DNA of 64,000 bases from an uncultured Clostridia bacterium (GCA_934101145.1 CAKOPZ010000005.1:5290-69289); one strand, 5' to 3'; shown: positions 4,797 to 47,143, counted from the first letter of the stretch. Notes: generated by a model from the sequence alone, not told the origin. Numbers and translations: made by a program.

Positions 4797-4853
4797 ATTT
4801 ATGATTTATAAAAAATTGCTTTGAGTTTAGAAATAAATTCAAGGCAATTTTTT

Positions 4854-5372: not shown

Positions 5373-6506
5373 ATGAAAGAGGGAAAAATGAGGCAAGAAA
5401 GAGGTATCACGCTGATAGCGTTAGTTGTAACTATTGTAGTATTAATAATACTTGCAACAGTAAGTATTAATGCAGTGCTAGGACAAAATGGAATAATAGG
5501 GAAAGCAAAACAAGCAAAGGAGTCATATGAAAAAAGTGTGAAAGCAGAAGATACAGCAATGCAGGAATTACTAAATGAAATGGCACAGTATAATACTTAT
5601 AATAGTGGTTCAGGTGGAGGAACAACAAAACCTGAAGAAGGAATAACAGCAACAGTAGAAGGAAAGACAGTAACAATAACAAAAGATAATGTAGCAGATT
5701 ATTTAGGAAGAGTAGTAACAAACTATAAGCCAACATCAACAACAGTAACAGTAGGAAAAAAAGAATATACAGTATCAAATAATTACAGATTATATTATAT
5801 AGATTTTGAAAAAAAATATAATAAAGATGAAGTATCAGTATTTTTGAAGGCAGATTGTACAGGTAATATATATGCATTAGGACAAGATACAACAGCATCA
5901 ACAGCAGACAATGTAAAAATCAAGGCATTAAATCCATCATTATATAAGGATGGAGTAACAGCGCCAGCAGCAAGTCAAGCCAATATGAAAGCAGTAACAT
6001 TTTTAACAAATACAAGTAATTGGTCAAGCTTAAAAACAGGAGCAAGCCTAGCAGATAAAGTAAATTATGTAGTAGGTGCACCAAGTGTAGAGATGATGAT
6101 GGATAGTTATAATACAAAGTATGGATTAACAGGAAAAACACCAAATACAGGAACATTAACAGCAGATACAGCAAGAGCAAAATTATTCTATCAATATCCA
6201 ACAACGATAGATAGTAATAACTATGGATATGCGGTAGGCCCATGTAATAAAAGGTCAGATAAAAATGAATATAATTATTATACATCAGATTACTCAGTAA
6301 AAACAGATTCAGCAATAGACAGTATGTATTATCCAGGTAGTGGAAACTATTACTGGTTGGCGTCTCCTTCGGCTTCCTACGATTTCTGTGTGCTCAATGT
6401 GGACTGTCGCTTCGGGGGCCAAGTGTGCAACTGCAGCTGTAACAACAGTATTGCGCTTTGTCCGCTAGTTTCTCTTAAGTCTACAGTCTCTCTACAACTA
6501 CAGTAG
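5373..6506 (+). CDS. DGR target paralog 2 (pilin-like N-terminus, C-terminal VR)
   Basis: AGGAGG lies 10 nt upstream of the ATG. N-terminus is RQERG-ITLIALVVTIVVLIILATVSI. It shares the middle domain and the C-terminal YYWLASPSA...LCPLVSLKSTVSLQLQ with the other paralogs. Confidence 0.85.
   Translation: MKEGKMRQERGITLIALVVTIVVLIILATVSINAVLGQNGIIGKAKQAKESYEKSVKAEDTAMQELLNEMAQYNTYNSGSGGGTTKPEEGITATVEGKTVTITKDNVADYLGRVVTNYKPTSTTVTVGKKEYTVSNNYRLYYIDFEKKYNKDEVSVFLKADCTGNIYALGQDTTASTADNVKIKALNPSLYKDGVTAPAASQANMKAVTFLTNTSNWSSLKTGASLADKVNYVVGAPSVEMMMDSYNTKYGLTGKTPNTGTLTADTARAKLFYQYPTTIDSNNYGYAVGPCNKRSDKNEYNYYTSDYSVKTDSAIDSMYYPGSGNYYWLASPSASYDFCVLNVDCRFGGQVCNCSCNNSIALCPLVSLKSTVSLQLQ
6354..6468 (+). 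repeat. DGR variable repeat VR2
   Basis: 115-nt alignment to the TR. Hand count gives 23 differences at TR adenines plus 7 at non-adenine positions, including TTC->CTT inside the GC-rich 3' block. Confidence 0.8.
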
Positions 6507-6544
6507 AAAGTACAAAAAAGTTAACATAAAACAATCTACAACAA

Positions 6545-6787
6545 GCACAAAAAAATAAATTTGAAATAATGGTAACTTCGCTGGATACACCAAATAGCAT
6601 ATATGATATAAAGTATAAAAATAAAGTGATTGTTATTGGAAACGAGGCAAATGGAGTGTCTAAACCTATACAAGATATGGCAGATAAAAAAGTTAAAATT
6701 CCTATGCTTGGAAAAACAGAAAGCTTAAATGCTTCTGTCGCAGCAGGCATTATGATATATGAATATGTTAGAGGAAAGATAGTGTGA
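6545..6787 (+). pseudogene. Duplicated 3' fragment of the trmH-like gene (copy of 1729-1971)
   Basis: Near-identical to the last ~81 codons of the gene at 1183-1971. It has no N-terminal part, and the homology continues through the terminator into the upstream region of target 3. Confidence 0.85.
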
Positions 6788-7165
6788 ATAGGAATTTTGT
6801 GATAAACTTGTGAAAAATACACTTTTTCATATATGAAAACAATACAAAAATAACTCTGAATTGGCAATGAATTCAGAGTTATTTTTTGATGTGGTACTTT
6901 TGGGAGAACGTTGAAAAAGTACCACAAAAATACCGTGAGTGAGTAAAAATAAATGCAAGAGTAAAACATAAATTTTTATTTACAAAAAATCGACAAAGGG
7001 GTTGCTTTTTTTTGACAGTATTGGTAAAATAAGGATGTAAAATAACAATAAAGTATGCAAAAGATGAAAAATCTGCCAAAAATTATCGAAATTTTGCCTG
7101 TGGATTCGATAATTTTGGACATTTAATTTTTGTGTACTAAAGAAAAAAGGAGGAAAACGTTTAAA

Positions 7166-8299
7166 ATGAAAAACATAGTAAACAGAAGAAATAGTGGAAT
7201 AACGCTAATTGCGTTAGTTGTAACCATTGTAGTATTGATAATTCTTGCAACAGTGAGTATTAATACAGTATTAGGAGATAATGGAATAATAAAAAAAGCA
7301 CAAGAAGCTAAAGAGGCATACTCAAAAAGTGTGAAAGCAGAAGATACAGCAATGCAGAAATTACTAAATGAAATGGTACAGTATGATACTGATAATAGTG
7401 GTTCAGGTGGAGAAACAACAAAACCAGCAGAAGGAATAACAGCAACAGTAGATGGAAAGACAGTAACAATAACAAAAGACAATGTAGCAACATATTTAGG
7501 AAAAGTAGTAAGTAATTACAAGCCAACCGGAACAACAGTAGCTGTAGGAGGAACAACATATACAGTATCAAATAATTATAGATTGTATTATGTAGATTTT
7601 GAGGGAAAATATGGAGAAAAAAATGGAGTGTATTTGAAAGCAGATTGTACAAATAAAAATTATGCATTAGGACAAGATACAACAGCATCAACAGAAGACA
7701 ATATCAAAATCAAAGCATTAAATCCATCATTATATAATAAGGATGGGGTAACATCACCAGTAGCAAGTAATCCAAATATGAAAGCAGTAACATGGCTATT
7801 AAATACAAGTAATTGGAATAGTTTAAAAACAGGGGCAGGTTTAGCAGATAAAGTAAATTATGTAGTAGGTGCACCAAGTGTAGAGATGATGTTTGATAGT
7901 TATAATACAAAGTATGGGCTAACAGGAGAAACACCAGATACAAGCGCATTAAGTGCAAGTACAGATAGAGTAAAGCTATTCTATCAATATCCAACAACGA
8001 TAGATAGTAACAATTATGGATATGCGGTAGGCCCATGTAAGGATAGTTCAAATGAAAAAAAATATTATTATTACACATCAGATTATTCAGTAAAGACAGA
8101 TGCAACAATAGACAGTATGTATTATCCAGGGGATAATCAGTATTACTGGCTGGCGTCTCCTTCGGCTCACGGCACTAGCTTTGTGCTCTATGTGGACTCC
8201 AACGGCGGGGGCTATGTGTACAACTACAACTATGGCGGCAACGGTGCGTTCTGTCCGCTAGTTTCTCTTAAGTCTACAGTCTCTCTACAACTACAGTAG
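7166..8299 (+). CDS. DGR target paralog 3 (RT-proximal; pilin-like N-terminus, C-terminal VR)
   Basis: AGGAGG is upstream of ATG 7166 (the ORF track starts at 7130). N-terminus is RRNSG-ITLIALVVTIVVLIILATVSI. VR3 lies in the last ~50 codons. Confidence 0.9.
   Translation: MKNIVNRRNSGITLIALVVTIVVLIILATVSINTVLGDNGIIKKAQEAKEAYSKSVKAEDTAMQKLLNEMVQYDTDNSGSGGETTKPAEGITATVDGKTVTITKDNVATYLGKVVSNYKPTGTTVAVGGTTYTVSNNYRLYYVDFEGKYGEKNGVYLKADCTNKNYALGQDTTASTEDNIKIKALNPSLYNKDGVTSPVASNPNMKAVTWLLNTSNWNSLKTGAGLADKVNYVVGAPSVEMMFDSYNTKYGLTGETPDTSALSASTDRVKLFYQYPTTIDSNNYGYAVGPCKDSSNEKKYYYYTSDYSVKTDATIDSMYYPGDNQYYWLASPSAHGTSFVLYVDSNGGGYVYNYNYGGNGAFCPLVSLKSTVSLQLQ
8147..8261 (+). repeat. DGR variable repeat VR3 (cognate, adenine-only mismatches)
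   Basis: 115 nt aligned to TR 9452-9566. There are 20 mismatches, every one at a TR adenine, and 0 non-A mismatches (hand alignment). Confidence 0.9.
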
Positions 8300-29556: not shown

Positions 29557-29683
29557 AAACTTTGCACCTCCCATTGCTATAGTTAAAATCGACTATTTAC
29601 AAGTTTACCACAAAGTAGAGAAAAATGCAAGAGTTTTGCAAAAATTCGTACGAATTGGGTCTACAGATATTATTTTATTAAAG

Positions 29684-29819
29684 GCATAACGATATAATAT
29701 TTCAAGGAAACGCGCAGCGACCAAACGAAGCCAAAGGCTGAGTGCGATTCGAGCAGCCGTCAATCCTTTGGGATTGGCTGCGAACGGCAAGTTTCTAAGA
29801 AATATTATATCGCTTATGC
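29684..29819 (-). repeat. Dispersed ~135-nt structured repeat, copy A
   Basis: 20-bp terminal inverted repeat GCATAA(G)CGATATAATATTTC encloses the conserved core GCAGCCAATCC..GGATTGACGGCTGC..TCGAATCGCACTCAGCC..GGTCGCTGCGCG. It lies in the rpmB 5' region. Confidence 0.85.
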
Positions 29820-30133
29820 TAATATAAATATAGAAAACAGTATCTTTTAACTAAATTAGTTACAATGTAGCTTTTTGTCGAATATGGACGAACGATTTTA
29901 CTTGCAATACATAAGAATTTATGCTTAAATAGAACCATAGCAAATATACTATTATTAAAATTATTTCAAAAATTTATTTATCTAGGACAAATCGTCCAAA
30001 TTTTCAATCAAAACACAATATAATGAAACACAAAATAAAGGAGGTGCTATATATTTTAGGGGATTTTTGCGCTCAAAAATTTCTGGTATAACAATAATAG
30101 CGTATTTAACATACAATTTTTAGGAGGAGTATA

Positions 30134-31420
30134 ATGATAGCAAAAAACGTAAAAAAGCTTGTTGGCGTTATGCTAATAGTAATTACATTGATAATTGCCA
30201 CAGAAACATATTCTAGTGCTGCAACTGATATAACATCTGCAGATATAAAATATGTTAAAGATTGTGGGAGTCATTTGCAAGCAAAAGACAAAAATGGATG
30301 GTATACAATTGTAGCAAGTTATGTAGAATACACAGCACCAAATGGAGTAAAGTATCCAGCATATTGTTTGGATAATACAAAGCCAGGAGTTGGAAATTCA
30401 ATTATAGGAGATTTGCCAGAGGGATACAAAGTAGATGTAAGTAAGGTGCTAGAAAATAATCAAGTTTATACAGCTGTGATAAATGGGTATCCATATAAAA
30501 CACCAAAAGATTTAGGAGTAGAGGATAAATATGATGCATATATTGCAACAAAACAAGCAGTTTATTCTGTGTTATATAATTATGAGGTAGATGAGCATTA
30601 CAAAGGAGTGGATACACGAGGAGAAAACATAAAAAAGGCTATAAAAAATATTGTAAAAATAGCAAGAGAAAAAACACAAACTCAAAGGTCAGCTTTGATT
30701 AGATTTGAAAAAGTGGGCGAGTTTGGGATAGATGAAAAAGATAGTTCATATTATTCTATAAAATATAAGGCTACATGTGATGTAGATATGAAGAGCTATG
30801 AAATAATTTCAAAAACAGGGCTTACTAAAAATACAGTTATAACAGATGGTGATAATAACAAGAAAACGGTTTTTGAGGCACAAGATGAATTTAAAATAAT
30901 GATACCAAAAAGTGATGTAGAAAATGGAAAAGATATACAAGGAACAATTAATGCTAAAGCTAAATGTAGAAATAAACCAGTTTTTTATGGAAGAAAAAGT
31001 AGTAAGCTTCAACCATATGCTTTAACATATGATACATATGGTGATAATTATGCAAGCGTAGAATTAAATGTGAAAATGAATACTGGAAAATTACAAATAA
31101 ATAAGATTTCAGAAAAGACTAAAAAGCCAATTGCAGGTGTAACATTTAAGCTTATGAAACTTGATGGCACAGAAATAGAAACTAAAAAAACAGATGCGAA
31201 TGGTATGATTATTTTTGACAATTTATATGAAGGAAAGTATATAGTGCAAGAAATTGAAACAGGGGACAAATACATATTAAATGAGGAACCATTTGAAGTT
31301 GAAATAAAATATAATGAAACAACAAATGTTAGTGTTGAAAATAAAGAAAAAGAAGAGCCTAAAAAGCCAGAGAAACCACCAAAAACTCCAGTAAAAAAAT
31401 TACCAAGAACAGGATTTTAA
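30134..31420 (+). CDS. Cell-surface adhesin-like protein: possible thioester-type domain plus Cna-B/SpaA-fold domain, ending at an LPxTG motif with no membrane anchor
   Basis: Signal peptide; YPAYCLDNTKPG and ATKQAVY resemble thioester-domain motifs. GVTFKLMKLDGTEIETKKTDANGMIIFDNLYEGKYIVQEIE is Cna-B-like. A Pro/Lys-rich stalk follows, and the protein ends KKLPRTGF-stop. Confidence 0.6.
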   Translation: MIAKNVKKLVGVMLIVITLIIATETYSSAATDITSADIKYVKDCGSHLQAKDKNGWYTIVASYVEYTAPNGVKYPAYCLDNTKPGVGNSIIGDLPEGYKVDVSKVLENNQVYTAVINGYPYKTPKDLGVEDKYDAYIATKQAVYSVLYNYEVDEHYKGVDTRGENIKKAIKNIVKIAREKTQTQRSALIRFEKVGEFGIDEKDSSYYSIKYKATCDVDMKSYEIISKTGLTKNTVITDGDNNKKTVFEAQDEFKIMIPKSDVENGKDIQGTINAKAKCRNKPVFYGRKSSKLQPYALTYDTYGDNYASVELNVKMNTGKLQINKISEKTKKPIAGVTFKLMKLDGTEIETKKTDANGMIIFDNLYEGKYIVQEIETGDKYILNEEPFEVEIKYNETTNVSVENKEKEEPKKPEKPPKTPVKKLPRTGF

Positions 31421-31444: not shown

Positions 31445-31577
31445 GCATAAGCGATATAATATTTCTTAGAAACTTGCTGCTTACAGCCAATCCAAAAGAT
31501 TGACGGCTGCTCGAATCGCACTCACTAACGTTCGTTTGGTCGCTGCGCGTTTCCTTAAAATATGATATCGCTTATGC
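31445..31577 (+). repeat. Dispersed ~135-nt structured repeat, copy B
   Basis: Same architecture as copy A. It has the variant internal segment CACTCACTAACGTTCG, shared with copy F. It starts 24 nt after the adhesin stop. Confidence 0.85.
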
Positions 31578-36279: not shown

Positions 36280-36364
36280 ATCTTATTAGATAAGCGAAAA
36301 AAAGCAGGAGAGATCCTGCTTTTTTTTATGTGTTACTAGATAATGATTTTAAGATTTATATTGA

Positions 36365-36500
36365 CGCATAGAGATATAATATTTCTTAGAAACTTGCTGT
36401 TCGCAGCCAATCCAAAAGATTGACGGCTGCTCGAATCGCACTCAGCCTTCGGCTTCGTTTGGTCGCTACGCGTTTCTTTGAAATATTATATCTCTATGCG
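36365..36500 (+). repeat. Dispersed ~135-nt structured repeat, copy C
   Basis: Perfect 21-bp terminal stem CGCATAGAGATATAATATTTC / GAAATATTATATCTCTATGCG. It shares the 5' extension GATTTTAAGATTTATATT with copies E and F. Confidence 0.85.
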
Positions 36501-36751
36501 CCTACAAAAAACATTATCCAGTAACTATTAGGCTAGAAACTTAGTAAAAAAAGTATTATAGAAAAATGTGATATATAAGGCAAAATATTAACATTAAAGC
36601 CGTGTAGAAATAATAAGATAAGCCAATAAAAAGAGATATGATTAGTTAAATGTTACAGCTATATTACAGAAATATTACAAATTTGTAAAAACATTGAACA
36701 TATACAAAAAATAATATATAATAAATAAAAAAATGGAAAAGGAGATAAAAT

Positions 36752-37903
36752 ATGGAACATAAGGAAAAGAAAAGACAAGAGAACAAAGGAATAACGCTAA
36801 TAGCGTTAGTTGTAACTATTGTAGTTTTAATAATACTTGCAACAGTAAGTATTTTTGCTGTATTTGGAGATAATGGGCTAATAGCAAGGGCACAAACAGC
36901 AAGAGATGTACAGAACAAAGAAAAGGCAAAAGAGACAAATACACTTGATGATTATGCAAGTTATATAGGAAATTATTTAGATAGTAAAAGTGAAGATAAC
37001 TCTAAGGAAGACGATAACAAGAAAGAAGGAATAACAGCAACAGTAGATGGAAAGACAGTAACAATAACAAAAGATAATGTGGCGACATATTTAGGAAGAG
37101 TAGTAAGCAATTACAAGCCTACAACAAATACCGTAACAGTAGGGACAAATACGTATACAGTATCAAATAATTATAGATTGTATTATGTGGATTTTGATAA
37201 AAAATATAATAAAGATGAAGTATCAGTATTTTTAAAGGCAGATTGTACAAGCAATAATTATACATTAGGACAAGATACAACAGCATCAACAGTAGACAAT
37301 GTAAAAATCAAAGCATTAAATCCATCACTATATAAGGATGGAATTACATCACCAACAGCAAGTAATGCAAATATGCAAGCAGTAACATTTTTAACAAATA
37401 CAAGTAATTGGAATAGTTTAAAGATAGGAGCAAGCCTAGCAGATAAAGTAAATTATGTAGTAGGTGCACCAAGTGTAGAGATGATGTTTGATAGTTATAA
37501 TACAAAGTATGGGCTAAAGGATAAAGCAATAAATAAAGGAACATTAACAGCAGATACAAAAAGAGAAAAATTATTCTATCAATATCCAACAACAATAAAT
37601 ACTTATGGAAGTAATTTAGGATATGAGGTAGGACCAAATAATTCAAGCTCAGCAGTAAATGGATATAATTATTATACATCACAATATTCAGTAAAAACAG
37701 ATGCAACAATAGACAGTATGTATTATCCAGGAGATAGCCAATATTACTGGTTGGTGTCTCCTTCGGCTCGCAGCACTGACTATGTGCTCCGTGTGGGCTG
37801 CGGCGGAGGGGGCTATGTGAGCTTCGGCAGCTACTATAGCGACGGCAGTGCGTTCTGTCCGCTAGTTTCTCTTAAGTCTACAGTCTCTCTACAACTACAG
37901 TAG
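36752..37903 (+). CDS. DGR target paralog 4 (remote, ~26 kb from the RT)
   Basis: AAGGAG RBS. N-terminus is ENKG-ITLIALVVTIVVLIILATVSI. The middle domain and last 17 residues match paralogs 1-3. Confidence 0.85.
   Translation: MEHKEKKRQENKGITLIALVVTIVVLIILATVSIFAVFGDNGLIARAQTARDVQNKEKAKETNTLDDYASYIGNYLDSKSEDNSKEDDNKKEGITATVDGKTVTITKDNVATYLGRVVSNYKPTTNTVTVGTNTYTVSNNYRLYYVDFDKKYNKDEVSVFLKADCTSNNYTLGQDTTASTVDNVKIKALNPSLYKDGITSPTASNANMQAVTFLTNTSNWNSLKIGASLADKVNYVVGAPSVEMMFDSYNTKYGLKDKAINKGTLTADTKREKLFYQYPTTINTYGSNLGYEVGPNNSSSAVNGYNYYTSQYSVKTDATIDSMYYPGDSQYYWLVSPSARSTDYVLRVGCGGGGYVSFGSYYSDGSAFCPLVSLKSTVSLQLQ
37748..37865 (+). repeat. DGR variable repeat VR4 (one codon longer than the TR)
   Basis: Hand alignment gives about 26 differences at TR adenines, 3 non-A substitutions and one extra codon (TAC). 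Confidence 0.75.
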
Positions 37904-38235: not shown

Positions 38236-40284
38236 ATGATAGATTTAAAACAAAGTGTGCAATATGTTAAAGGAGTAGGACCTACCAAAGCAAAGATATT
38301 GCAAAAATTAAATATAAATACTGTAGAAGATTTAATTACATATTATCCAAGAACATATGAGGATAGAAGCAAGCCTAAAACAATAGAAAGCCTAGTTGAT
38401 GGAGAAGAAGCTTTAATTGAAGCTGTTGCTACAAGCACTCCAACAGTTGTTAGAATGGGTAAAAAACGCTGTATGGTAAAGCTTGTTGTAAGAGATGAAA
38501 CAGCATCTTGCATTGCTGTATGGTTTAATCAGAGCTATATAAAAGGCAGATTTAAGGCAGGTGAAAAATATCGTCTTTTTGGTAAAATTCAAAAAAATTA
38601 TGGTAGAACAGAGATTATGAATCCTGTTTTTGACCAAGAAGATAAATCTAGAAATACTGGAAAGATAATTCCTTTGTATCCTTTAACTAAAAACTTGAAG
38701 CAAACCTCACTTAGGATGGCGATAGAAAATGGCTTAAAATTGGTTAATGGAAAGCTTGATGAGGTTATGCCAAACTATGTTTTAAATACATATCATTTAA
38801 TGGAAAGGAATAGAGCAATAAAGCAAATTCATTTTCCAGATAACTTTGATGAATATAGCAAAGCAAGAAAAAGACTTGTTTTTGAGGAACTTTTGAGTAT
38901 GCAACTAGCTCTTTCTAATTTAAAGGAAAAGTATAATAAAGAAAAAGATGGTATTGCTTTTAGTAAAGATACAAAGATGTCAGATGTTATAAATTCTCTT
39001 CCATTTAGTCTTACAAAAGCACAGATTAGAGTACTTGAAGAAATTGATAAGGACATGGAAGACAGCAAACCTATGAATAGACTTCTTCAAGGAGATGTTG
39101 GATCTGGTAAAACTATCGTATCTATAATAAGTGCATACAAGGCTGTAAAATGTGGATATCAAGTTGCTGTAATGGTTCCAACTGCAGTTCTTGCAAGCCA
39201 GCATTTAGAGGAATTTACAAAAGTATTGATGCCTTTTGGAATAAGATGTGAAATGCTTACAAGTAATATAAAAGGGAAAAAAAGAAAAGAGATTTTGGAA
39301 GGGCTTGAAGATGGAAGTGTGCAAGTTTTGATTGGGACACATGCTTTGCTTGTAGAAGATGTTGTGTTTAATAATCTTGGACTTGCTGTTACTGATGAAC
39401 AACACCGTTTTGGCGTAAGACAAAGAGGAACAATTGCTGGCAAAGGAAATAATCCAGATGTCCTTGTAATGACTGCAACTCCAATACCAAGAACTCTTGG
39501 ACTTATATTATATGGAGACCTTGATATATCTGTTATTGACGAACTTCCACCAAATAGGAAAAAGATTGAAACATATGCTGTTACAAAGAACATGGAAGAT
39601 AGAGTTAATAATTTTATAAGGAAAAATGTTAATGAAGGAAGACAGGTATATATTGTTTGTCCGCTTGTTGAAGAAAATGAGGAGATTAATGCTAAAGCTG
39701 TTGTTGAGCTTGAAGCAAAATATGAGCAAGAGATATTTAGTGATTTTCGTGTTAGATGTTTGCATGGAAAAATGAGACCAAAGGAAAAAGATGAAATTAT
39801 GCAAGAATTTAAAGATGGAAATATTGATATTTTGGTTTCTACTACTGTTATTGAAGTTGGTGTAAATGTTCCAAATGCAAGTGTTATGGTCATTGAAAAT
39901 GCAGAACGTTTTGGACTTGCACAGCTTCACCAATTAAGAGGTAGAGTTGGAAGAGGTCAGTGGCAATCGTATTGTATTTTGAAATATCAGGGTAAATCTA
40001 AGGAAATTCTGCAAAGAATGAAGATTATGCATGATACAAATGATGGATTTGTTATTGCTGATAAGGACCTTGAACTTAGAGGTGCTGGAGAATTTTTTGG
40101 GACTAGACAACATGGTATTCCTGAGTTTAAAATTGCTAATTTATTTGAAGATATGCCTATTTTAAAAGAAGTGCAGGTTTGTGTATCGCAAATTGAGCAG
40201 GTTGATCCTAATCTTGAACTTGCTGAGAATCAATGCCTTCGCAAGCTAATTGATGAACGTTTTACGAAACGTATAGAGATTTGA
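38236..40284 (+). CDS. recG: ATP-dependent DNA helicase RecG
   Basis: Wedge domain N-terminus and helicase motifs [16 protein letters not shown] and QLRGRVGRG. Confidence 0.93.
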
Positions 40285-40300
40285 TTTTACATATAAAAAA

Positions 40301-40434
40301 CATAAGAGATATAATATTTCTTGGAAACTTGCCGTTCGCAGCCAATCCAAAAGATTGACGGCTGCTCGAATCGCACTCAGCCTTCGGCTTCGTTTGGTCG
40401 CTGCGCGTTTCCTTGAAATATTATATCTCTTATG
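40301..40434 (+). repeat. Dispersed ~135-nt structured repeat, copy D
   Basis: Perfect 20-bp terminal stem CATAAGAGATATAATATTTC / GAAATATTATATCTCTTATG. It starts 16 nt after the recG stop. Confidence 0.85.
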
Positions 40435-40600
40435 CTTTATTTATAGTATAAAAAATAATAATGTAACATTTTTTTACAGGTAAAAATACTACAAAAAAGT
40501 GGCGTTTACTATTGACATTTACATAAAAAAACAATATGATATTAGATAGAAAAATGTAGAAATATGTAAAAGCAAAATTTGAAAGGCAAGGAGAGTAAAT

Positions 40601-41470
40601 ATGTATACGAAAATGCTAACCTCTAAAATGGGTGGAGAATTAGTTAGTTTTAAACTAAATGGAGAAGAACGTATCCATCAAGGTGCTGATGCACTTGACG
40701 AAAATGGAAAAGTATTTTGGAAAAGACATGCTCCAGTATTGTTTCCAGTAGTAGGTAAGCTAAAGAAGAATCAAACAATTATAAGTGGAAGAATCTATGA
40801 AATGCCACAACATGGTTTTGCAAGAGATTTTGAATTTGAGCCAATTACAAAACTTGATAATTTTCATTCATATGTGCTTAAGAGTAATCAAATTACAAAA
40901 AATAGATATCCATTTGATTTTGAGTTATATACAACATACAGATTAGATGAAAATAAATTGACAACAATTTATAAAGTAATTAATACAGGAGATGGGACTC
41001 TTCCTTTTGGTATAGGTGGACATCCTGCTTTTAAAATTGATGTAGATGAGTTAAAAAAAGGTAATTATTATCTTGAGTTTGAAGAGGACGAGGATAAAAT
41101 TCACTTTTTGTACTTAGTAGATGGACTTGTTGGAACAGAATATGCAAGAAGTAGAATGGCTGATAAAAGAACAATTAATATTGATTCGAATACATTTAAT
41201 AATGATGCAATTATAATGAAGGGAATAACATCTCATAAAATTAGTTTGAAGAATAGAGATGGTAATAGAACACTTCTTACAATGGATTTTACTGGTTTTC
41301 CATATTTGGCTATATGGTCTAAGCCTAATGCACCATTTATTTGTATTGAACCATGGTATTCTACTGCTGATAATATAAAAAGTACAGGTGTATTTATTCA
41401 AAAACAGGACATAATTGCATTAAAGCCACATGATACTTTTGAATGTAAATATACAGTTGAATTTTTTTAA
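40601..41470 (+). CDS. Aldose 1-epimerase-family (galactose mutarotase-like) protein
   Basis: Motifs HAPVLFPVVGKL, QHGFARD, GGHPAF and CIEPW are typical of the LacX/aldose-epimerase family. Confidence 0.75.
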   Translation: MYTKMLTSKMGGELVSFKLNGEERIHQGADALDENGKVFWKRHAPVLFPVVGKLKKNQTIISGRIYEMPQHGFARDFEFEPITKLDNFHSYVLKSNQITKNRYPFDFELYTTYRLDENKLTTIYKVINTGDGTLPFGIGGHPAFKIDVDELKKGNYYLEFEEDEDKIHFLYLVDGLVGTEYARSRMADKRTINIDSNTFNNDAIIMKGITSHKISLKNRDGNRTLLTMDFTGFPYLAIWSKPNAPFICIEPWYSTADNIKSTGVFIQKQDIIALKPHDTFECKYTVEFF

Positions 41471-41489
41471 TTAATAAAGAGGATTTTAT

Positions 41490-41684
41490 ATGAGTTTTAA
41501 TTTGATATTAACTTTTATGGGACTTGTTTTAGCAATGATAGGAGTTATTTTGGTTTATGATGCACGTATTTTGACAAAGCGATTTTTTAGTTTTGGAGAT
41601 CAAAATCAAGCATCATGGGGATTGAAGATACTTGGTTTTATCATTGCTATTATAGGTGGAATTTTAGTTTTTTTTAACGTGTAG
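41490..41684 (+). CDS. Small two-TM membrane protein
   Basis: Two hydrophobic segments, tightly spaced between the epimerase gene and valS. Confidence 0.45.
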   Translation: MSFNLILTFMGLVLAMIGVILVYDARILTKRFFSFGDQNQASWGLKILGFIIAIIGGILVFFNV

Positions 41685-41699
41685 AGAGGAGAAAATTGA

Positions 41700-44384
41700 A
41701 TGGATAACAAGCATAAATTAAATGACAAATTTAATCCAAAAGATTTTGAAGATAGATTATATGAACATTGGGAAAAGAGTGGATTTTTTAAACCAAGTAT
41801 GGATGAAAATAGCGAAAGCTATTGTATTATGATGCCACCTCCAAATGTAACAGGAAAATTGCATATGGGGCATGCTCTTGATGGAACTATTCAAGATGTT
41901 TTAATTAGATATAAAAGAATGCGTGGGTTTAATACACTTTGGCTTCCTGGAAGTGACCATGCTGCAATCTCTACAGAGATGAAAGTTGTTCAAAAGCTTG
42001 CTAAGGAAGGTAAAACAAAGCAAGATTTAGGTAGAGAGAAATTTTTAGAAGAAGCATGGGCTTGGACAAAGGAATATGGTGGAATTATTCAAAGGCAACA
42101 ACGTAAACTTGGTTGTTCTTGTGATTGGAATAGAACAAGATTTACACTTGACGAAGGTATGAGTGATGCTGTTTTAGAGCAATTTGTTAGACTTTACGAA
42201 AAAGGCCTTATATACAAAGGTAAACGCATGGTTAACTGGTGCACAAGTTGCAGAACATCTATTTCTGATGCGGAAGTTGAGTATAAAGAAGAAGCTTCTC
42301 ATTTATGGCATATCCGTTATAAAATTGTTGGGGAAGAGAACAAATATGTTGAAGTTGCAACAACAAGACCTGAAACAATGCTTGGTGATACAGCTGTAGC
42401 AGTTCATCCAGATGATGAGAGATACAAAGATATAGTAGGCAAAAAATGTATTTTACCTATTATGAATAAAGAAATTCCAATTGTTGCAGATGAATTTGTA
42501 GAAAAAGAATTTGGAACAGGTTGTGTTAAAATTACACCTGCACATGATCCAAATGATTATGCTTGTAGTCAAAGACATAACTTAGAAATTATAGAAGTTT
42601 TTGATGATAATTTTAAAATGGGAAATCTAGTACCAGAATATGCTGGTATGGACTTGTTAGATGCAAGAAAAGAAATTGTTAAAAAGCTTGAAGAAATTGG
42701 AGCACTTGTTTCAGTTGAGGATTATACTCACAATGTTGCAAAATGCGAAAGATGTAAGAATACGATAGAGCCAAAAATTTCTTTGCAATGGTTTGTAAGT
42801 ATGAAAGACTTAGCAAAGCGTGCAGCAGATAGTGTAAGAAATGGTGAAACAAAATTTGTACCAAAAAGATATGAAAAACAATATTTTAATTGGCTTGACA
42901 ATATTCAAGATTGGTGTATTTCTCGTCAATTATGGTGGGGACACAGAATTCCTGCATATTATTGTGAAGAATGTGGACATATAAATGTTGCAAAAACTGA
43001 GCCAGAAAAATGTGAGAAATGTGGAAGTACAAATCTAAAACAAGATCCTGACACACTTGATACTTGGTTTAGTTCAGCACTTTGGCCATTTTCTACACTT
43101 GGTTGGCCAGATACAAACAGTGTTGATTATAAAACATTTTATCCAACTCAAACTCTTGTAACTGGTTTTGATATTATTACTTTCTGGGTTTCAAGAATGA
43201 TGACACAAGCTTTAGAGTTTACCGGAGAAGTACCTTTTAAAGATGTACTTATCCACGGTATTGTTCGTGATAGTCAAGGAAGAAAAATGTCAAAAACTCT
43301 AGGAAATGGAATTGATCCATTAGAGGTTATTGATGAGTATGGAGCAGATAGTTTAAGATTTTCTGTACTTTCTGGAACAACTATGGGAAATGATATTAGA
43401 TTTATGCCAGAAAAATTGGAACAAGCATCAAATTTTGCAAATAAAATTTGGAATGCAGCAAAATTTATAACAAATTCGCTTGCAGATAATGAAAAAGTAA
43501 GAGAATTTAGTGAAAAAGCATTGCTTGCAGATAATGGATATAACAAAGATTTATTAAAAATTGAAGACAGATGGATTTTAAATAAACTTGATAAACTTGT
43601 ATCAGAAGTTAGCAAAAATATTGATAATTATGATATTGGAATTGCTGTTGATAAGATATATAACTTTATTTGGAATGAATTTTGCGATTGGTATATCGAA
43701 ATGGTTAAACCACGTATATATAGTGAAGATGAAGGGACAAAAGTACAAGTTAGTGCAATGCTAAATTATGTTTTTGGAAATTCACTTAAACTATTACATC
43801 CATTTATGCCATTTATAACATCTGAAATTTATTCAAAATTAATATGTTTTGGAACAGAGGATTTAATTGTAAGCAAGTGGCCAGAGATAAAACATAAATT
43901 TGCCTTTGAAGCAGATGAGTCAATTGTAGAAAGCTTGAAAAAGTTAATAACTGAAATTAGAAATGTTAGAACAAAAATGAATGTACATCCAAGTAAGAAA
44001 TCTAAATTAATTTTAGTTACAAGCTTAGATAAAAAAGAACTAAAAGAATCAGAAGAATTTTTATTAAAACTTGGTTTTGCAAGTGAAATAATATTACAAG
44101 AAAAAGAGGAGAATATACCTCAAAATGCAGTTTCTATTGTGGTAGATGAAATAAAGGCATATATACCTTTTGAAGAACTTGTTGATATTGAGCAGGAGAA
44201 AGCAAGATTGCAAGAAGAAATAAAAAGGCTAGAGGCAGAAGTTGCAAGAGGAAACAAAATGTTATCTAATCCGGGATTTGTAAATAAAGCACCTGAGGCT
44301 AAGGTACAAGAGGAAAAAGATAAGCTTGCAAATTATGAGCAGATGCTAAAGGCAACTAAGGAAAGACTAGAAAGTTTGAATTAA
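41700..44384 (+). CDS. valS: Valine--tRNA ligase
   Basis: Class I motifs HMGH (GKLHMGHAL) and KMSKT, with a C-terminal coiled coil. Confidence 0.95.
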   Translation: MDNKHKLNDKFNPKDFEDRLYEHWEKSGFFKPSMDENSESYCIMMPPPNVTGKLHMGHALDGTIQDVLIRYKRMRGFNTLWLPGSDHAAISTEMKVVQKLAKEGKTKQDLGREKFLEEAWAWTKEYGGIIQRQQRKLGCSCDWNRTRFTLDEGMSDAVLEQFVRLYEKGLIYKGKRMVNWCTSCRTSISDAEVEYKEEASHLWHIRYKIVGEENKYVEVATTRPETMLGDTAVAVHPDDERYKDIVGKKCILPIMNKEIPIVADEFVEKEFGTGCVKITPAHDPNDYACSQRHNLEIIEVFDDNFKMGNLVPEYAGMDLLDARKEIVKKLEEIGALVSVEDYTHNVAKCERCKNTIEPKISLQWFVSMKDLAKRAADSVRNGETKFVPKRYEKQYFNWLDNIQDWCISRQLWWGHRIPAYYCEECGHINVAKTEPEKCEKCGSTNLKQDPDTLDTWFSSALWPFSTLGWPDTNSVDYKTFYPTQTLVTGFDIITFWVSRMMTQALEFTGEVPFKDVLIHGIVRDSQGRKMSKTLGNGIDPLEVIDEYGADSLRFSVLSGTTMGNDIRFMPEKLEQASNFANKIWNAAKFITNSLADNEKVREFSEKALLADNGYNKDLLKIEDRWILNKLDKLVSEVSKNIDNYDIGIAVDKIYNFIWNEFCDWYIEMVKPRIYSEDEGTKVQVSAMLNYVFGNSLKLLHPFMPFITSEIYSKLICFGTEDLIVSKWPEIKHKFAFEADESIVESLKKLITEIRNVRTKMNVHPSKKSKLILVTSLDKKELKESEEFLLKLGFASEIILQEKEENIPQNAVSIVVDEIKAYIPFEELVDIEQEKARLQEEIKRLEAEVARGNKMLSNPGFVNKAPEAKVQEEKDKLANYEQMLKATKERLESLN

Positions 44385-44397
44385 ATATTTTATGAAC

Positions 44398-44428
44398 AAA
44401 GTCAGCACATTTTGTGCTGGCTTTTTTT
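44398..44428 (+). terminator. Rho-independent terminator after valS
   Basis: AAAGTCAGCAC / GTGCTGGCTTT stem followed by a T-run. Confidence 0.75.
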
Positions 44429-44541
44429 GTCGAAAAGTTCTTATAAATCGGCAAAACTTCCCAATTTTTACTCTTGGAAAAATATGTAAAAAGATTTATA
44501 ATAGGACAAGCTAATAAATATGTTATTTGAGGAGGTAAGAG

Positions 44542-44862
44542 GTGAATATTTTTTTTAATCAAAAAGAGAAGATATTAACTGTTGAAATAACAGAGGAGAT
44601 TGACCACTGTGTGGCAGAAAATGTAAGGAGGAGAGTTGATAATGAAATTACGAGATATATGCCTAGAAAAACTATATTTGATTTTAGTAGGGTTGCTTTT
44701 ATGGACAGTGCAGGAATAGGGATGATTATAGGTAGATATAAACTTATGAAGCTTATTGGTGGAAGTTTAGAGATTCACAATGTTAAGGAAAGTGCAAAGA
44801 AGATATTAGAAATGAGTGGAGTTTTAAAAATTGTGCCTATAACAGAGCTAAAATTGGCTTAA
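44542..44862 (+). CDS. spoIIAA: Anti-sigma-F factor antagonist (STAS domain)
   Basis: STAS fold with the phosphorylatable Ser context FMDSAGIGM. First gene of the spoIIA operon. Confidence 0.88.
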   Translation: MNIFFNQKEKILTVEITEEIDHCVAENVRRRVDNEITRYMPRKTIFDFSRVAFMDSAGIGMIIGRYKLMKLIGGSLEIHNVKESAKKILEMSGVLKIVPITELKLA

Positions 44863-44888
44863 AAATAAGTACAAATGTGGAGGGTTAA

Positions 44889-45374
44889 ATGAAAAGTGTG
44901 TATGATAATGAGATGAAATTGGAGTTTTTGAGTAAGGCAAATAATGAGGCTTTTGCAAGGATAACTGTGGCAGCTTTTGTGTCACAGCTTGATCCTACAA
45001 TTGAGGAACTTGCGGATATAAAAACAGCTGTGTCTGAGGCTGTTACAAATGCAATTGTGCATGGATATGAGGATACAGAAGGTATTGTAAAGGTAGTAGC
45101 AAAGCTTTTTGCAAATACTGTCGAGATAGAGGTGTCTGATACTGGAAAGGGTATAGAAGATGTTGAGCTTGCACGTAAACCTCTATATACAACAAAAGCT
45201 AATCTTGAAAGATCTGGAATGGGATTTACAATTATGGAGAGTTTTATGGATGAGGTTGAAATTGATTCTGTTGTTGGACTTGGTACTAAAATTAAGATGA
45301 AAAAAATGATAAAAAAGGTGTCAATTGATGATGAAGAGGTACAAAACCTGATGAGTTTGGGGGCAGATAGATAA
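44889..45374 (+). CDS. spoIIAB: Anti-sigma-F factor (Ser protein kinase)
   Basis: HATPase_c motifs NAIVHGY, DTGKGI and GMGFT. Confidence 0.88.
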
Positions 45375-46137
45375 GTGTCAAATGAGAAGATGTTTCAAAA
45401 ATATGAGAATAAAGTAGAGGACATTATAAAGGCACAAAATGGAGATACTCAGGCTTTGGAGAGTTTGATTAAACAAAATCAAGGGCTTCTTTGGAGTATA
45501 GTGAAAAGATTTACTGGCAGAGGTTTTGAGAATGAGGATTTATATCAAATTGCAAGTTTAGGTTTTATAAAATGTATAAAAAAATTTGATACAAATTTTG
45601 ATGTAAGGCTTTCTACATATGCTGTTCCATATATACTTGGAGAGGTAAAAAGGTATATTCAAGAAGATGGACCAATAAAAGTAAGCAGAGCTTTAAAAGA
45701 ATTAAATAGTAAAATTGCTGTTGTTCAACATGAATATATGAGAAAAAAAGGTAAAGAAATAGGGATTGAAGAACTTGCAAAAGAGCTGCGGTGTTTCAAA
45801 AGAAGAAATTACGATGGCACTTGAGAGTAAAAATTCTGTAAATTCTATTTATGATAGTACATATAGTGATGATGAAGAGGGAATCAGTATTATTGAAAAG
45901 ATTTCTTCAAACATTGATGAACAGAATTTAATTACAAATAAAATTGCAATTTCGCAGTTACTAGAAAATTTAAAAGAGGATGAGAAAGAGGTTATACTTC
46001 TTAGATATTTTAGAGAAAAAACACAGGTTGAAGTTGCAAGAATAATTGGAACAAGCCAAGTACAGGTTTCTAGAATTGAAAAAAGAGCTCTTGAAAATAT
46101 GAAAAGAAGATTAACAAAAGATGTTGTAATGAAATAA
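45375..46137 (+). pseudogene. sigF: Sporulation sigma factor F, interrupted by a +1 frameshift at 45789 (extra C creating in-frame CGG)
   Basis: Two overlapping ORFs (45375-45824 and 45766-46137). Removing C45789 restores ...ELAKEL-GVSKEEITMALE... and a full-length ~253-aa sigma-70-family protein. Confidence 0.85.
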
Positions 46138-46152
46138 AAGAGAGGCAGAGAC

Positions 46153-47143
46153 ATGAGAAAAATTTTGTGTTATTTTTTTATGCTTATTTTAATATGTTTT
46201 GCAATTCCAATAATATTTACAAGTTCGAAAAATAAAGAAAAAGCAAGTCAAAATGTAGTAAATGAACAAATTCCAGAGATTACATATGACTACAAAAAAT
46301 ATTCAAAAATAAAGCTATATCATACAGCAACTAAGAAAACGCAAGAGATTCCAATTGATGAATATTTGTATGGAGTAGTTAGTGCAGAAATGCCTGCAAG
46401 TTTCGAAGAAGAAGCACTAAAAGCACAAGCTGTTGTTGCAAGAACATATACTTTATACAAAATTGTTAATAGTAGCAAACACAAAGGTGCATATATATGT
46501 GATAGCTATGCGTGTTGTCAAGCATGGATTTCAAAAGAAGATAGACTTAAAAAATGGGAAGAAAGTAAAAGGGATGAGTATTGGAATAAAATTGTAAAGG
46601 CAGTAAATACGACGCAGGGCAATATAATTACATATGAAGGAAAGCCAATAAATGCTTTTTTTCATTCAAATAGTGGTGGTGCAACAGAGTCGCCAATTAA
46701 TGTATGGGGTGGATCAAATTATCCATATCTTCAAACGGTTACAACTGCAGGAGAAGATGCATATAAGCAGTATAAAAGTAGTGCTTGTGTTACCAAAAAA
46801 GAATTTGAAGAGAAAATTAAGAAATTACATAGTGATTTTAAAATAGATTTTAAGCAAAAAGATTGTATAAAGATAGAGGAATACACAGAAGGACGGAAGA
46901 GTTAAAAAGGTTAAAATTGGAAATTTAGAATTGTCCGGTGTTGAGGTAAGAAATATTTTTAGCCTTAAATCTGCAAATTTTAAAGTAAGTATAGAAAATG
47001 ATAATATAAAATTTGATGTAACAGGCTATGGACACGGAGTTGGAATGAGTCAAACAGGTGCAGATGCTCTTGCAAAACAAGGCAAAAATTATGAAGATAT
47101 AATAAAACATTATTATTCAAAAATAAAAATTGAAAATATTTAG
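46153..47143 (+). pseudogene. spoIID: Stage II sporulation protein D (lytic transglycosylase), interrupted by a +1 frameshift at 46894 (extra C creating in-frame CGG)
   Basis: ORFs 46153-46905 and 46931-47143. Removing C46894 gives ...EYTEG-GRVKKVKIGNLELSGVEVR.... Motifs QAVVARTY, FFHSNSGGATE and GHGVGMSQ are present. Confidence 0.85.

What the first reader, a model, noticed from the sequence alone, without database searches (positions are those of the whole stretch)
40301..40434. Six copies of a ~135-nt dispersed repeat with conserved, compensated secondary structure
**Copies.** A 29684-29819 (-), B 31445-31577 (+), C 36365-36500 (+), D 40301-40434 (+), E 48085-48218 (+), F 60019-60150 (-).

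**Shared architecture.**
- A 20-21 bp terminal stem, for example CATAAGAGATATAATATTTC...GAAATATTATATCTCTTATG.
- A second stem, GAAAC/GTTTC.
- A hairpin, GCAGCC-AATC-CAAAA-GATT-GAC-GGCTGC.
- A segment TCGAATCGCACTC-[AGCCTTCGGCT or ACTAACGT]-TCGTTTGGTCGCTGCGCG.

**Covariation between copies.**
- The terminal stem covaries: AAGAGAT/ATCTCTT in D and E, ATAGAGAT/ATCTCTAT in C, AAGCGAT/ATCGCTT in B.
- The small hairpin is AATC/GATT in most copies, AATCC/GGATT in A and AATTC/GGATT in F.

That pattern argues for selection on structure (RNA or single-stranded DNA), not just recent copying.

**Other observations.** Copies C, E and F share an extra 5' block, GATTTTAAGATTTATATT. Copies C and F share a 3' block, CAAAAAACATT. 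Six copies in 64 kb implies a very abundant family. I cannot match it to a named RNA family or MITE from memory. The listed ORFs beginning MPFAANPK... are artefacts of this repeat.
Basis: seen in the sequence. Interest (0 to 1): 0.75.

Follow-up and report, generated by a model that had tools for sequence, protein, structure and literature searches.

The report
Mobile palindromic repeat in gut Firmicute
The six repeats are real copies of a small, transposase-less mobile DNA element (a MITE-like repeat of about 135-200 bases) confined to two closely related uncultured gut bacteria; its long hairpin stem is kept paired by compensating changes, which makes it a well-documented new member of a known kind and not a new kind of RNA gene.

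Summary
Six intergenic copies sit at the stated coordinates (85-98% identical), and the terminal stem covaries significantly. The ~135-nt unit is the conserved inner part of a ~195-200-nt element with imperfect outer inverted repeats.

The element is mobile.
- Copy F is absent from conspecific strains, and the filled site carries a 7-bp target duplication. Two sister-species copies have 7-bp flanking repeats.
- Copy A is present, absent or inverted between strains.
- Copy B is deleted or decaying in some strains.
- Copy D occurs in both orientations in both sister species.
- Orthologous copies swap sequence modules with other copies, which indicates gene conversion.

The family was found in only two related uncultured human-gut Firmicutes among 185,579 species genomes. 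It has no Rfam, Pfam, plasmid or phage match, and no partner transposase was found.

Best reading: a non-autonomous MITE-like element with a GC-rich hairpin core. Pairing of its 20-21-bp stem is maintained either by selection on a single-stranded form or by arm-to-arm correction. It resembles bcr1, RUP, BOX and Correia elements. A host RNA function is not shown. Covariation inside the core is weak. Novelty: a new member of a known kind.

The parts
40301..40434 (+). Copy D, inner unit bounded by the terminal stem (P1). Sub-features: 5' arm 40301-40320; P2 40323-40328 with 40407-40412; GC-rich core 40329-40406; hairpin 40335-40370; small hairpin AGCCTTCGGCT 40379-40389; invariant 19-mer 40360-40378; 3' arm 40415-40434.
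40285..40467 (+). Copy D with its non-canonical outer parts (TTTTACATATAAAAAA ... GCTTTATTTATAGTATAAAAAATAATAATGTAAC). The limits are uncertain. The interior of this stretch is the segment found inverted in other strains and in the sister species.
29661..29861 (-). Copy A, the full 201-nt insertion relative to empty alleles. The inner unit is 29684-29819. It lies upstream of rpmB (L28, 29359-29556, - strand).
31445..31577 (+). Copy B, inner unit only with no canonical outer blocks. It carries the CTAACGT loop variant and the CTTAC variant. In some strains it is deleted (a solo 3' arm remains) or decaying.
36332..36525 (+). Copy C, canonical long form (194 nt). Outer inverted repeat P0 is GTTACTAGATAATG (36332-36345) with CATTATCCAGTAAC (36512-36525). 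The inner unit is 36365-36500. It follows the terminator hairpin of the amylase gene.
48058..48231 (+). Copy E. Inner unit 48085-48218, canonical 5' block 48065-48082, and a variant 3' part that runs into a half hairpin (TTTTGAGTCCGTCCAAAAAAGTACC). The outer limits are uncertain. Other strains carry a different sequence with a 172-aa gene here.
59993..60190 (-). Copy F, full 198-nt element. The inner unit is 60019-60150.
60191..60197 (-). Target-site duplication TTCAAAA at the 5' side of copy F, inside the last codons of dapA.
   Evidence: DapA is 297 aa with the element and 295 aa without
59986..59992 (-). Target-site duplication TTCAAAA at the 3' side of copy F. It is present once in the empty alleles L047-L052.

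Best explanation
**What it is.** A lineage-specific family of small non-autonomous transposable elements (MITE-like interspersed repeats).

**Anatomy.** A full copy is about 195-200 nt and has these parts:
- Imperfect outer inverted repeats (P0, consensus GTTACTAGATAATG...CATTATCCAGTAAC).
- AT-rich blocks.

**How it moves.** It inserts into AT-rich intergenic DNA with a 7-bp staggered cut. By inference it is mobilised in trans by a transposase encoded elsewhere in the genome. It is then lost by ordinary deletions.

**How copies evolve.**
- Resident copies exchange sequence by ectopic gene conversion. This keeps the inner ~115 nt almost identical between copies, while the outer parts have diverged by about 40%.
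- Pairing of the variable outer 9 bp of P1 is actively kept. The cause is either a requirement for the long hairpin in a single-stranded form (a read-through transcript or single-stranded DNA) or correction of one arm against the other.

**Shown:** copies, anatomy, presence/absence, the 7-bp duplication, covariation, module exchange, and both orientations at two loci.

**Inferred:** the transposase, the cause of compensation, and any effect on neighbouring genes (stabilising or processing read-through mRNA is the most likely effect).
For: **Mobility.**
- F locus: six conspecific contigs lack the element, and the filled site is a 198-nt element plus a duplicated TTCAAAA.
- 7-bp direct repeats also abut the ends of L003 (CACTTTT) and L002 (ATTATTT).
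- A locus: 201 nt are present in the window and in 2 of the 9 conspecific contigs compared, absent in 6, and inverted in 1.
- B locus: a 132-nt deletion leaves a solo arm, and a decaying copy occurs in another clade.
- Two contigs covering the same region in two conspecific strains differ at 3 of the 4 loci compared (A, B, E differ; D does not).

**No coding capacity or known identity.** There is no Pfam hit in any frame. The window genes scanned with Pfam are mostly housekeeping genes, with no transposase among them.

**Narrow distribution.** The family occurs in the window's species plus one sister MAG among 185,579 species genomes, and in human-gut metagenome contigs. There are no viral, plasmid or phage matches.

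**P0 behaves like ordinary decaying terminal repeats.** It shows no covariation: 1571 of 5000 permutations reach the observed value.

**P1 covaries**.

**Gene conversion.**
- At the F locus, L074 and the window have 100% identical flanks but 9 differences inside the element. Several of them (the CTTAC and CAAGCG modules) are variants seen in other copies.
- The same module swaps occur among D-locus alleles.

**Mean pairwise difference among 10 long-form loci.** P0 0.35-0.43; outer arms 0.42; inner arms 0.02-0.04; core 0.12.

**Orientation.** All 7 loci lying between co-directional genes are co-oriented with those genes.
Against: - No autonomous partner or transposase was found in the window or in the ~272 kb of related DNA held. 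The whole genome could not be searched.
- The terminal bases of P0 are not conserved between copies (TGCTAC..., GTTAC...). This is unusual for ends recognised by a DDE transposase.
- Copy A shows no duplication longer than 1 bp.
- The centre is GC-rich, whereas classic MITEs are AT-rich.
- A transposase reading double-stranded ends does not by itself explain why P1 arms stay complementary.
- At the A and D loci the element occurs in both orientations with different arm sequences. Simple transposition explains this only with strong site preference or replacement.
Confidence: 0.6

Rival explanations
1. The unit is primarily a functional structured RNA: a cis-acting element in 3' UTRs or between cistrons, or a multicopy small RNA. 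Its fold is kept by selection in the host, and mobility is secondary.
For: - Significant compensated changes in the terminal stem, and one compensated double change in helix 2.
- A GC-rich core in an AT-rich genome.
- Very stable folds.
- All 7 loci between co-directional genes are co-oriented with the genes, and the orientation follows local gene direction on both strands of one window.
- The inner 115 nt are nearly invariant between copies.
Against: - No Rfam match, even at E up to 10.
- The family is confined to two sister species.
- Copies are dispensable: empty, deleted and decaying alleles exist.
- Both orientations are tolerated at the A and D loci.
- There is no consistent promoter or terminator.
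- Internal helices lack covariation, and helix 2 is broken without compensation in several alleles.
- Core identity is explained by gene conversion.
- The functional strand cannot be told.
- No expression data are available.
Confidence: 0.15
2. It is a single-stranded-DNA hairpin element of the REP/RAYT or IS200/IS605-derived (PATE) type. A Y1 transposase recognises the conserved hairpin, so pairing matters more than sequence in the outer stem.
For: - The outer stem keeps pairing but not sequence, while the inner stem and centre are sequence-conserved. This is the pattern expected for a hairpin recognised as a structure.
- Terminal bases are poorly conserved.
- No duplication is seen at copy A.
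- CTAC/GTAG-like motifs lie at the ends of A and F.
Against: - A 7-bp target duplication at F, checked against empty alleles, and 7-bp flanking repeats at L003 and L002. Y1 elements make none.
- The size (135-200 nt) is far above the 20-40 bp of REPs, and there is no consistent GTAG or CGTC tag (definition in PMC3733652, abstract seen).
- Orientation follows transcription, not a single replication direction, within one 64-kb window.
- No Y1 transposase was seen in the ORFs scanned.
Confidence: 0.1
3. It is a family of invertible DNA switches (invertons). A site-specific recombinase flips the interior between the outer inverted repeats and changes expression of neighbouring genes.
For: - The interior lies in opposite orientation between the same flanks at two of six loci: A (L038 versus the window) and D.
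- At the D locus both orientations occur in the window's species (L069 versus L065-L068 and L070) and in the sister species (4 forward, 6 inverted contigs).
- The P0-like right flank follows the strain background, while the interior follows the allele.
Against: - Forward and inverted interiors are not reverse complements of each other. The arms differ at 4-5 of 9 positions and the blocks differ by 20-25%, so the two states cannot interconvert by a simple flip.
- No recombinase gene was found in the window ORFs scanned.
- There is no consistent internal promoter.
- Most loci show one orientation only.
Confidence: 0.07

Closest known systems
bcr1 (group A bcr repeats) of the Bacillus cereus group
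   Same: Both are Firmicute elements of ~155 bp with no coding capacity, dispersed in intergenic DNA. Their positions are not conserved between related strains and they are flanked by short direct repeats. Both fold into a strongly paired structure with compensatory base changes (PMC3184786, read).
   Different: - bcr1 has 5-bp direct repeats; this element has 7 bp.
- This element has an extra outer repeat shell (P0 plus blocks) and a GC-rich centre.
- Transcription is shown for bcr1 and untested here.
- Sequence similarity to bcr1 was not tested, and no homology is claimed.
RUP, BOX and SPRITE repeats of Streptococcus pneumoniae
   Same: These are small (<200 bp), highly base-paired, non-autonomous repeats of a low-GC Gram-positive bacterium. 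They sit mostly downstream of genes, are partly polymorphic between strains, and are thought to act on co-transcribed genes through their structure. For SPRITE no matching IS end is known (PMC3049150, read).
   Different: - No sequence relation is known.
- This family is restricted to two uncultured gut species.
- This family shows measured stem covariation, module exchange between copies, and alleles of both orientations at one site.
Correia elements (NEMIS) of Neisseria, and MITEs in general
   Same: Both have terminal inverted repeats around a non-coding core, a target duplication and a long hairpin at the RNA level. Many copies lie close to genes (PMC3184786, PMC3049150).
   Different: - Correia elements have conserved 26-bp terminal repeats and a TA duplication. 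Here the outer repeats are imperfect and decaying.
- Here the well-kept stem is internal and covaries.
- Here the core is GC-rich and not AT-rich.
REP/BIME elements and RAYT transposases
   Same: Both are intergenic palindromes whose hairpin structure, more than their sequence, is maintained, and both show an orientation bias relative to genes.
   Different: REPs are 20-40 bp, carry a GTAG or CGTC tag (PMC3733652) and make no target duplication. This element is 135-200 nt and makes a 7-bp duplication.

Membership tests
MITE (miniature inverted-repeat transposable element) | Small (under about 400 bp) with no transposase gene | tested here: met
   The element is 132-201 nt. No Pfam hit in any open frame. 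A protein search returned only another copy of the element and one insignificant hit.
MITE (miniature inverted-repeat transposable element) | Terminal inverted repeats | tested here: met
   The outer P0 pair GTTACTAGATAATG/CATTATCCAGTAAC matches at 13 of 14 positions in copy C and is weaker in other copies. An internal 20-21-bp stem P1 is also present.
MITE (miniature inverted-repeat transposable element) | Target-site duplication flanking the insertion | tested here: met
   The 7-bp TTCAAAA at F was checked against six empty alleles. 7-bp repeats abut the ends of L003 and L002. None is seen at A, and C, D and E are unclear.
MITE (miniature inverted-repeat transposable element) | Dispersed copies whose presence varies between related strains | tested here: met
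   The A, B, E and F loci vary between conspecific contigs.
MITE (miniature inverted-repeat transposable element) | A cognate IS or transposase with matching ends in the same host | tested here: inconclusive
   None was found in the window or in 272 kb of related loci.
MITE (miniature inverted-repeat transposable element) | AT-rich composition | tested here: not met
   The outer parts are AT-rich, but the 85-nt centre is 55% G+C against 30.6% for the window.
Any described RNA family (Rfam 15) | A match to a covariance model | tested here: not met
   The only gathering-level hit in the window is a T-box elsewhere. Across copy D the best match has E = 0.31, at 17 bits against a cut-off of 36.
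REP / RAYT-associated palindromes | 20-40-bp palindrome with a GTAG or CGTC tag and no target duplication | tested here: not met
   The element is 135-200 nt with no consistent tag and has a 7-bp duplication. Definition from PMC3733652.
IS200/IS605-derived elements (PATE) | Insertion 3' of a fixed tetra- or pentanucleotide without duplication, and subterminal hairpins instead of terminal repeats | tested here: not met
   The target sequences differ (TTCAAAA, CACTTTT, ATTATTT) and are duplicated.
Inverton (site-specific invertible switch) | The same segment found in both orientations between the same flanks | tested here: met
   Seen at the A locus and at the D locus in both species.
Inverton (site-specific invertible switch) | The two states are exact reverse complements (a reversible flip) | tested here: not met
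   The arms and blocks differ between the states.
Inverton (site-specific invertible switch) | Both orientations within one population, and a recombinase | not testable with these tools
   No read-level data are available. No recombinase was seen in the ORFs scanned.
bcr1 family (sequence membership) | Sequence homology to bcr1 and a TTTAT 5-bp duplication | not tested
   No bcr1 sequence was compared. The duplication here is 7 bp, so the relation is one of resemblance in behaviour only.

The most novel reading that the evidence does not exclude
The nearly invariant inner ~115 nt (inner arms, P2 and the GC-rich centre) might be a functional single-stranded module and not mere cargo. It could be a structured RNA or DNA hairpin that the element needs for its own propagation or that acts on neighbouring genes.

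Under this reading, the two orientation states at the A and D loci, which persist in two sister species on otherwise recombining backgrounds, would be maintained by selection as orientation-dependent regulatory alleles. That would make this a new type of mobile, orientation-polymorphic regulatory element in gut Firmicutes.
Probability: 0.1. Interest if true: 0.7.

Novelty: new member of a known kind. Interest (0 to 1): 0.38.

Why it matters
- **Source of strain variation.** The element causes strain-level structural variation in a prevalent but uncultured human-gut Firmicute. Two contigs covering the same region in two conspecific strains differ at 3 of the 4 loci compared. It also changes the C-terminus of DapA.
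- **Assembly quality.** It fragments and may chimerise metagenome assemblies.
- **Annotation.** A sequence or covariance model for it would stop gene callers from predicting spurious ORFs in it, and stop RNA-motif pipelines from reporting it as a candidate RNA gene.
- **A caution about covariation.** This is a clean natural example in which stem covariation coexists with mobility and inter-copy gene conversion. Covariation alone is therefore not proof of a host RNA function.
- **If the orientation alleles are selected.** The element would be a tractable case of repeat-borne regulatory polymorphism.

Tried and rejected
- **Rfam.** A gathering scan of the whole window and a permissive scan across copy D gave no family.
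- **Plasmids, phages, viral contigs.** No match for the long form or the 19-mer.
- **Protein-coding or transposase-remnant reading.** Four translated frames gave no Pfam hit. A profile of the translated core against 5.8 billion proteins returned only an F-locus copy and one insignificant hit.
- **Taxonomic naming.** Cluster look-ups carry no names. The organism is known only as an uncultured human-gut Firmicute (SpoIID, PASTA kinase, LPXTG/TED pilin, T-box).
- **Solo outer shells, solo ends or IS-sized repeat pairs.** None in 272 kb.
- **Intrinsic terminator or promoter inside the element.** No consistent site. The stem is followed by A-rich sequence, not T-rich.
- **Strand assignment.** Fold energies and G-U content are equal on both strands. 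Wobble asymmetry is suggestive for the minus strand at two positions next to an internal loop, but overall undecided.
- **'Variable arms come from the target'.** Rejected, because the arms are homologous variants of one consensus (GCRTAAKNR) and fall into subfamilies.
- **'Only the core flips by recombination in the P1 arms'.** Rejected, because the blocks outside P1 are inverted too.
- **'Outer arms are hypervariable'.** Rejected, because they diverge as much as P0 and the 3' block. What is special is that they stay paired, while P0 does not.
- **7-bp repeats at D and E.** Not accepted as duplications. The geometry is off or they overlap P0, and chance matches are plausible in AT-rich DNA.
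- **A link to the DGR in the window.** Considered and dropped. Arm variation is not adenine-specific.

Full report
**1. Observation check.**
- They are 132-136 nt and 42-46% G+C. The centre is 55% G+C, in a window of 30.6% G+C.
- A profile built from the copies finds no further diverged copy in the window.
- All copies lie between genes. A lies upstream of rpmB. The other five lie just behind a gene on the same strand.
- In D the 20-bp terminal stem (P1) is 40301-40320 with 40415-40434. The second stem (P2, GGAAAC/GTTTCC) is 40323-40328 with 40407-40412. The hairpin around GCAGCC...GGCTGC is 40335-40370.
- Both strands fold far better than shuffled sequence (z -8.6 and -7.7).

**2. The unit is the inner part of a longer element.**
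- Alignment of 24 copies with flanks shows further shared sequence outside P1.
- On the 5' side this is GTTACTAGATAATG-ATTTTAAGATTTATATT.
- On the 3' side it is C(C/T)TACAAAAAAC-ATTATCCAGTAAC.
- The outermost 14 nt form an imperfect inverted repeat (P0; 36332-36345 and 36512-36525 in C).
- This canonical shell is clear in C, F and L003. Its 5' part is also clear in E, L016 and L018 and more weakly in A and L002, and its 3' part in L001. It is absent or different in B and D.
- No shell without an interior, and no solo end, was found in 272 kb of related DNA.

**3. Distribution.**
- An exact 19-mer from the invariant centre (GGCTGCTCGAATCGCACTC) was scanned against one genome for each of 185,579 species.
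- It hit seven places in a single other genome, an uncultured-bacterium MAG (CAJMLO01). The other 11 hits are chance hits in high-GC genomes.
- One of the seven places, L010, is syntenic with window 38701-46272 at 90-96% identity, so this MAG is a sister species.
- The metagenome scan gave 11 further true copies, several from contigs labelled human gut, and many at contig ends.
- Viral contigs, plasmids and phages gave nothing.
- Rfam gave nothing, either at gathering level or at E up to 10 across copy D.
- The window genes are those of a spore-forming low-GC Gram-positive bacterium.
- The exact L28 protein is indexed in 672 blocks of the contig collection, and the places returned came from metagenome assemblies that include Hadza gut samples. 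No species name could be obtained.

**4. Mobility, shown by comparing strains.** Contigs carrying exactly the same flanking proteins were fetched for all six loci.
- **F locus.** One contig matches the window. Six lack the element. The empty site reads ...AAAGTTTTCAAAATTATTAA.... The filled site has TTCAAAA, then 198 nt, then TTCAAAA. The insertion lies in the last codons of dapA, so DapA is 297 aa with it and 295 aa without.
- **A locus.** The window and two contigs carry a 201-nt insertion. Six contigs have a clean empty site (GCTACATTAC|ACCC). One (L038) has an insertion of the same size whose interior is inverted. No duplication longer than 1 bp is visible. The left flank, also present in the empty alleles, resembles a worn 3' end of another copy (ATATTCG-ACAAAAAGCTACATT(GTA)AC). 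This is my reading and was not tested statistically.
- **B locus.** Two contigs have a 132-nt deletion that leaves the 3' arm alone. A divergent clade (L040-L044) has a decaying copy that has lost 12 nt of the 3' arm and carries many substitutions.
- **E locus.** Seven of the ten contigs examined carry an unrelated sequence in place of the element, and four of these extend into a 172-aa gene.
- **C locus.** It is filled in all contigs fetched.
- **Two-strain comparison.** One contig that matches the window and one from another conspecific strain cover the same region. They differ at 3 of the 4 loci compared (A, B, E).

**5. Target duplication.** Besides F, exact 7-bp direct repeats abut the predicted element ends in two sister-species copies. 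L003 has CACTTTT with 196 nt between the repeats, and L002 has ATTATTT with 209 nt. Candidate 7-mers at D and E have the wrong geometry or overlap P0 and were not accepted. Three cases of exactly 7 bp indicate a staggered cut, which suggests a DDE-type transposase. This last step is an inference from general knowledge of transposition.

**6. Covariation.**
- The outer 9 bp of P1 differ between loci. Examples are GCATAAGCG, CGCATAGAG, GCGTAATCA, CAAAGAACA, GGCTAATTG and AAGCGAGCA. Each 5' arm pairs with its own 3' arm.
- Own arms pair at 8.4 of 9 positions, against 5.5 of 9 for arms from different loci. None of 20000 permutations reached the observed total (14 independent loci).
- On the 26-sequence alignment, 13 pairs have changes on both sides (51 cells). 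None of 500 shuffles reached this, and slid controls gave 2-8 pairs.
- Eleven of the 13 pairs are in P1 and P2. Two are in helix 2 and come from one lineage (L040-L044, TTCG/CGAA to TTTA/TAAA). Helices 3-5 have none.
- The same helix-2 pairs are broken without compensation in window B, L074, L075 and L080.
- P2 is compensated once (GCACC/GGTGC in L015 and L020).
- P0 does not covary: own 10.25 against cross 10.0, and 1571 of 5000 permutations reach the observed value.

**7. Divergence profile and gene conversion.**

Mean pairwise difference among ten long-form loci:

| Segment | Mean pairwise difference |
|---|---|
| P0 | 0.35-0.43 |
| 5' block | 0.20 |
| Outer arms | 0.42 |
| Inner arms | 0.02-0.04 |
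| P2 | 0.08 |
| Centre | 0.12 |
| 3' block | 0.43 |

- The copies are therefore old in their outer parts and almost identical inside.
- The cause is visible at orthologous loci. L074 and the window share 100% identical flanks at F, yet differ at 9 positions inside the element. Several of those differences (the CTTAC and CAAGCG modules) are variants that occur in other copies.
- The same modules switch among D-locus alleles of one species and assort independently among copies.
- I conclude that copies exchange sequence by ectopic gene conversion, which homogenises the interior.
- Some metagenome contigs join the 5' flank of one locus to the 3' flank of another (L030, L022, L035). These may be real recombinants or assembly chimeras. 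They were left out of the independent-locus permutation and strand tests.

**8. Orientation.**
- In the window and the sister MAG, all seven loci lying between co-directional genes carry the element in the gene's direction. F (-) and B-E (+) follow their local genes within one 64-kb stretch. The bias is therefore to transcription, not to one replication direction (two-sided binomial 0.016, my calculation).
- Two loci nevertheless have a second allele with the interior inverted. These are A (L038) and D.
- At D the inverted allele occurs in the window's species (L069) and in the sister species (L010, L027 and 6 of 10 contigs). The forward allele also occurs in both species.
- The short P0-like right flank (ATGTAAC or ATTTAAC versus ATCAAAC) follows the strain or species background. 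The interior follows the allele.
- The two states are not reverse complements. The arms differ at 4-5 of 9 positions (ATAAGAG versus AAGAACA at D; GCATAAGCG versus GGCTAATTG at A) and the adjacent blocks differ by 20-25%. They still share locus-specific features, such as TAGTATAAAAA at D.
- This fits an old inversion or replacement of the interior that persists as a polymorphism. It does not fit a rapid flip-flop switch. How it arose is not resolved.

**9. Mechanism.**
- I commit to a non-autonomous transposable element with three properties. It is mobilised in trans, with a 7-bp duplication. Its interior is homogenised by gene conversion. Its long internal stem is kept paired.
- Mobility, the duplication, the conversion and the pairing are shown. 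The transposase is inferred and was not found.
- Two causes of the compensation remain open.
  - One is selection on a folded single strand. RNA in read-through transcripts is favoured by the orientation bias.
  - The other is arm-to-arm correction in a DNA hairpin or cruciform contiguous with the perfectly conserved inner arms. This would explain why P1 stays paired while P0, beyond an asymmetric internal loop, does not.
- Fold energies and G-U counts do not separate the strands. Two recurrent A.C/C.A positions beside the internal loop would be G.U on the minus strand, but single cases are balanced.
- There is no consistent promoter or terminator.

**10. Comparison with known elements and novelty.**
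- The element meets the MITE criteria of size, lack of coding capacity, inverted repeats, target duplication and strain-variable presence. It fails on AT-richness of the core, and it lacks an identified partner.
- In behaviour it is closest to bcr1 of the Bacillus cereus group (~155 bp, 5-bp direct repeats, transcribed, compensatory changes; PMC3184786). It is also close to RUP, BOX and SPRITE of pneumococcus (PMC3049150).
- It is not a REP/RAYT or IS200/IS605-type element, because of the duplication and the size. It is not a member of any Rfam family.
- It is a new family, hence a new member of a known kind.
- The features a specialist would note are the clean contrast between a covarying internal stem and non-covarying terminal repeats, the direct evidence for inter-copy conversion, and the two-orientation alleles shared by two species.

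**11. Limits.**
- Only one exact-word scan each of the genome and metagenome collections was possible, so diverged relatives would be missed.
- Copy number per genome is unknown.
- The copies analysed come from two species and include orthologues. Orthologues were removed for the permutation tests but not.
- No expression data and no read-level data were available.

Noticed in passing
window 2349-10845 and 36752-37903: A diversity-generating retroelement. The reverse transcriptase ORF is 9883-10845 (RVT_1) and the template repeat is 9452-9571. Variable repeats lie at the 3' ends of four paralogous genes: 3324-3443, 6354-6473, 8147-8266, and a remote one at 37748-37867, 28 kb away and just downstream of repeat copy C. 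Mismatches to the template fall almost only on template adenines (21 of 21 for the 8147-8266 copy).
   Followed up: partly
window 62287-62537 (+): A T-box leader (RF00230, 96 bits). It is the only Rfam gathering-level hit in the window.
   Followed up: no
window 48232-48262; L002 and L035 3' of the repeat; L056 1741-1790: A second small hairpin family, GGTACTTTTTG-(8-10 nt)-CAAAAAGTACC. It lies next to copy E (only its right half is present), next to the L002/L035 copy (complete), and in the E-locus allele that lacks the repeat. It may be a terminator-like repeat or a variant 3' end of the element.
   Followed up: partly
window 48053-48620 versus L056-L059: A structural variant downstream of the M23 peptidase gene. 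Conspecific strains carry an unrelated ~0.9-kb segment with a 172-aa gene of no known family where the window has repeat copy E. The breakpoint lies exactly at the 5' edge of the repeat.
   Followed up: partly
window 29862-29900 (- strand; left flank of copy A), also present in empty alleles L039-L044: The flank CCATATTCGACAAAAAGCTACATT(GTA)AC resembles a worn 3' arm plus 3' block plus terminal GTAAC of another copy. Copy A may therefore have inserted next to an old element end. The resemblance was judged by eye and not tested statistically.
   Followed up: partly
L022, L030, L033, L035 (metagenome contigs): These contigs join the 5' flank of one repeat locus to the 3' flank, or the reverse-complemented 5' flank, of another, and their terminal stems are mismatched. 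They are either real recombination between copies (deletions or inversions) or assembly chimeras at the repeat.
   Followed up: no
window 30134-31420 (+): A thioester-domain (TED) plus SpaA-fold surface protein with an LPRTG sorting signal, lying between repeat copies A and B.
   Followed up: no
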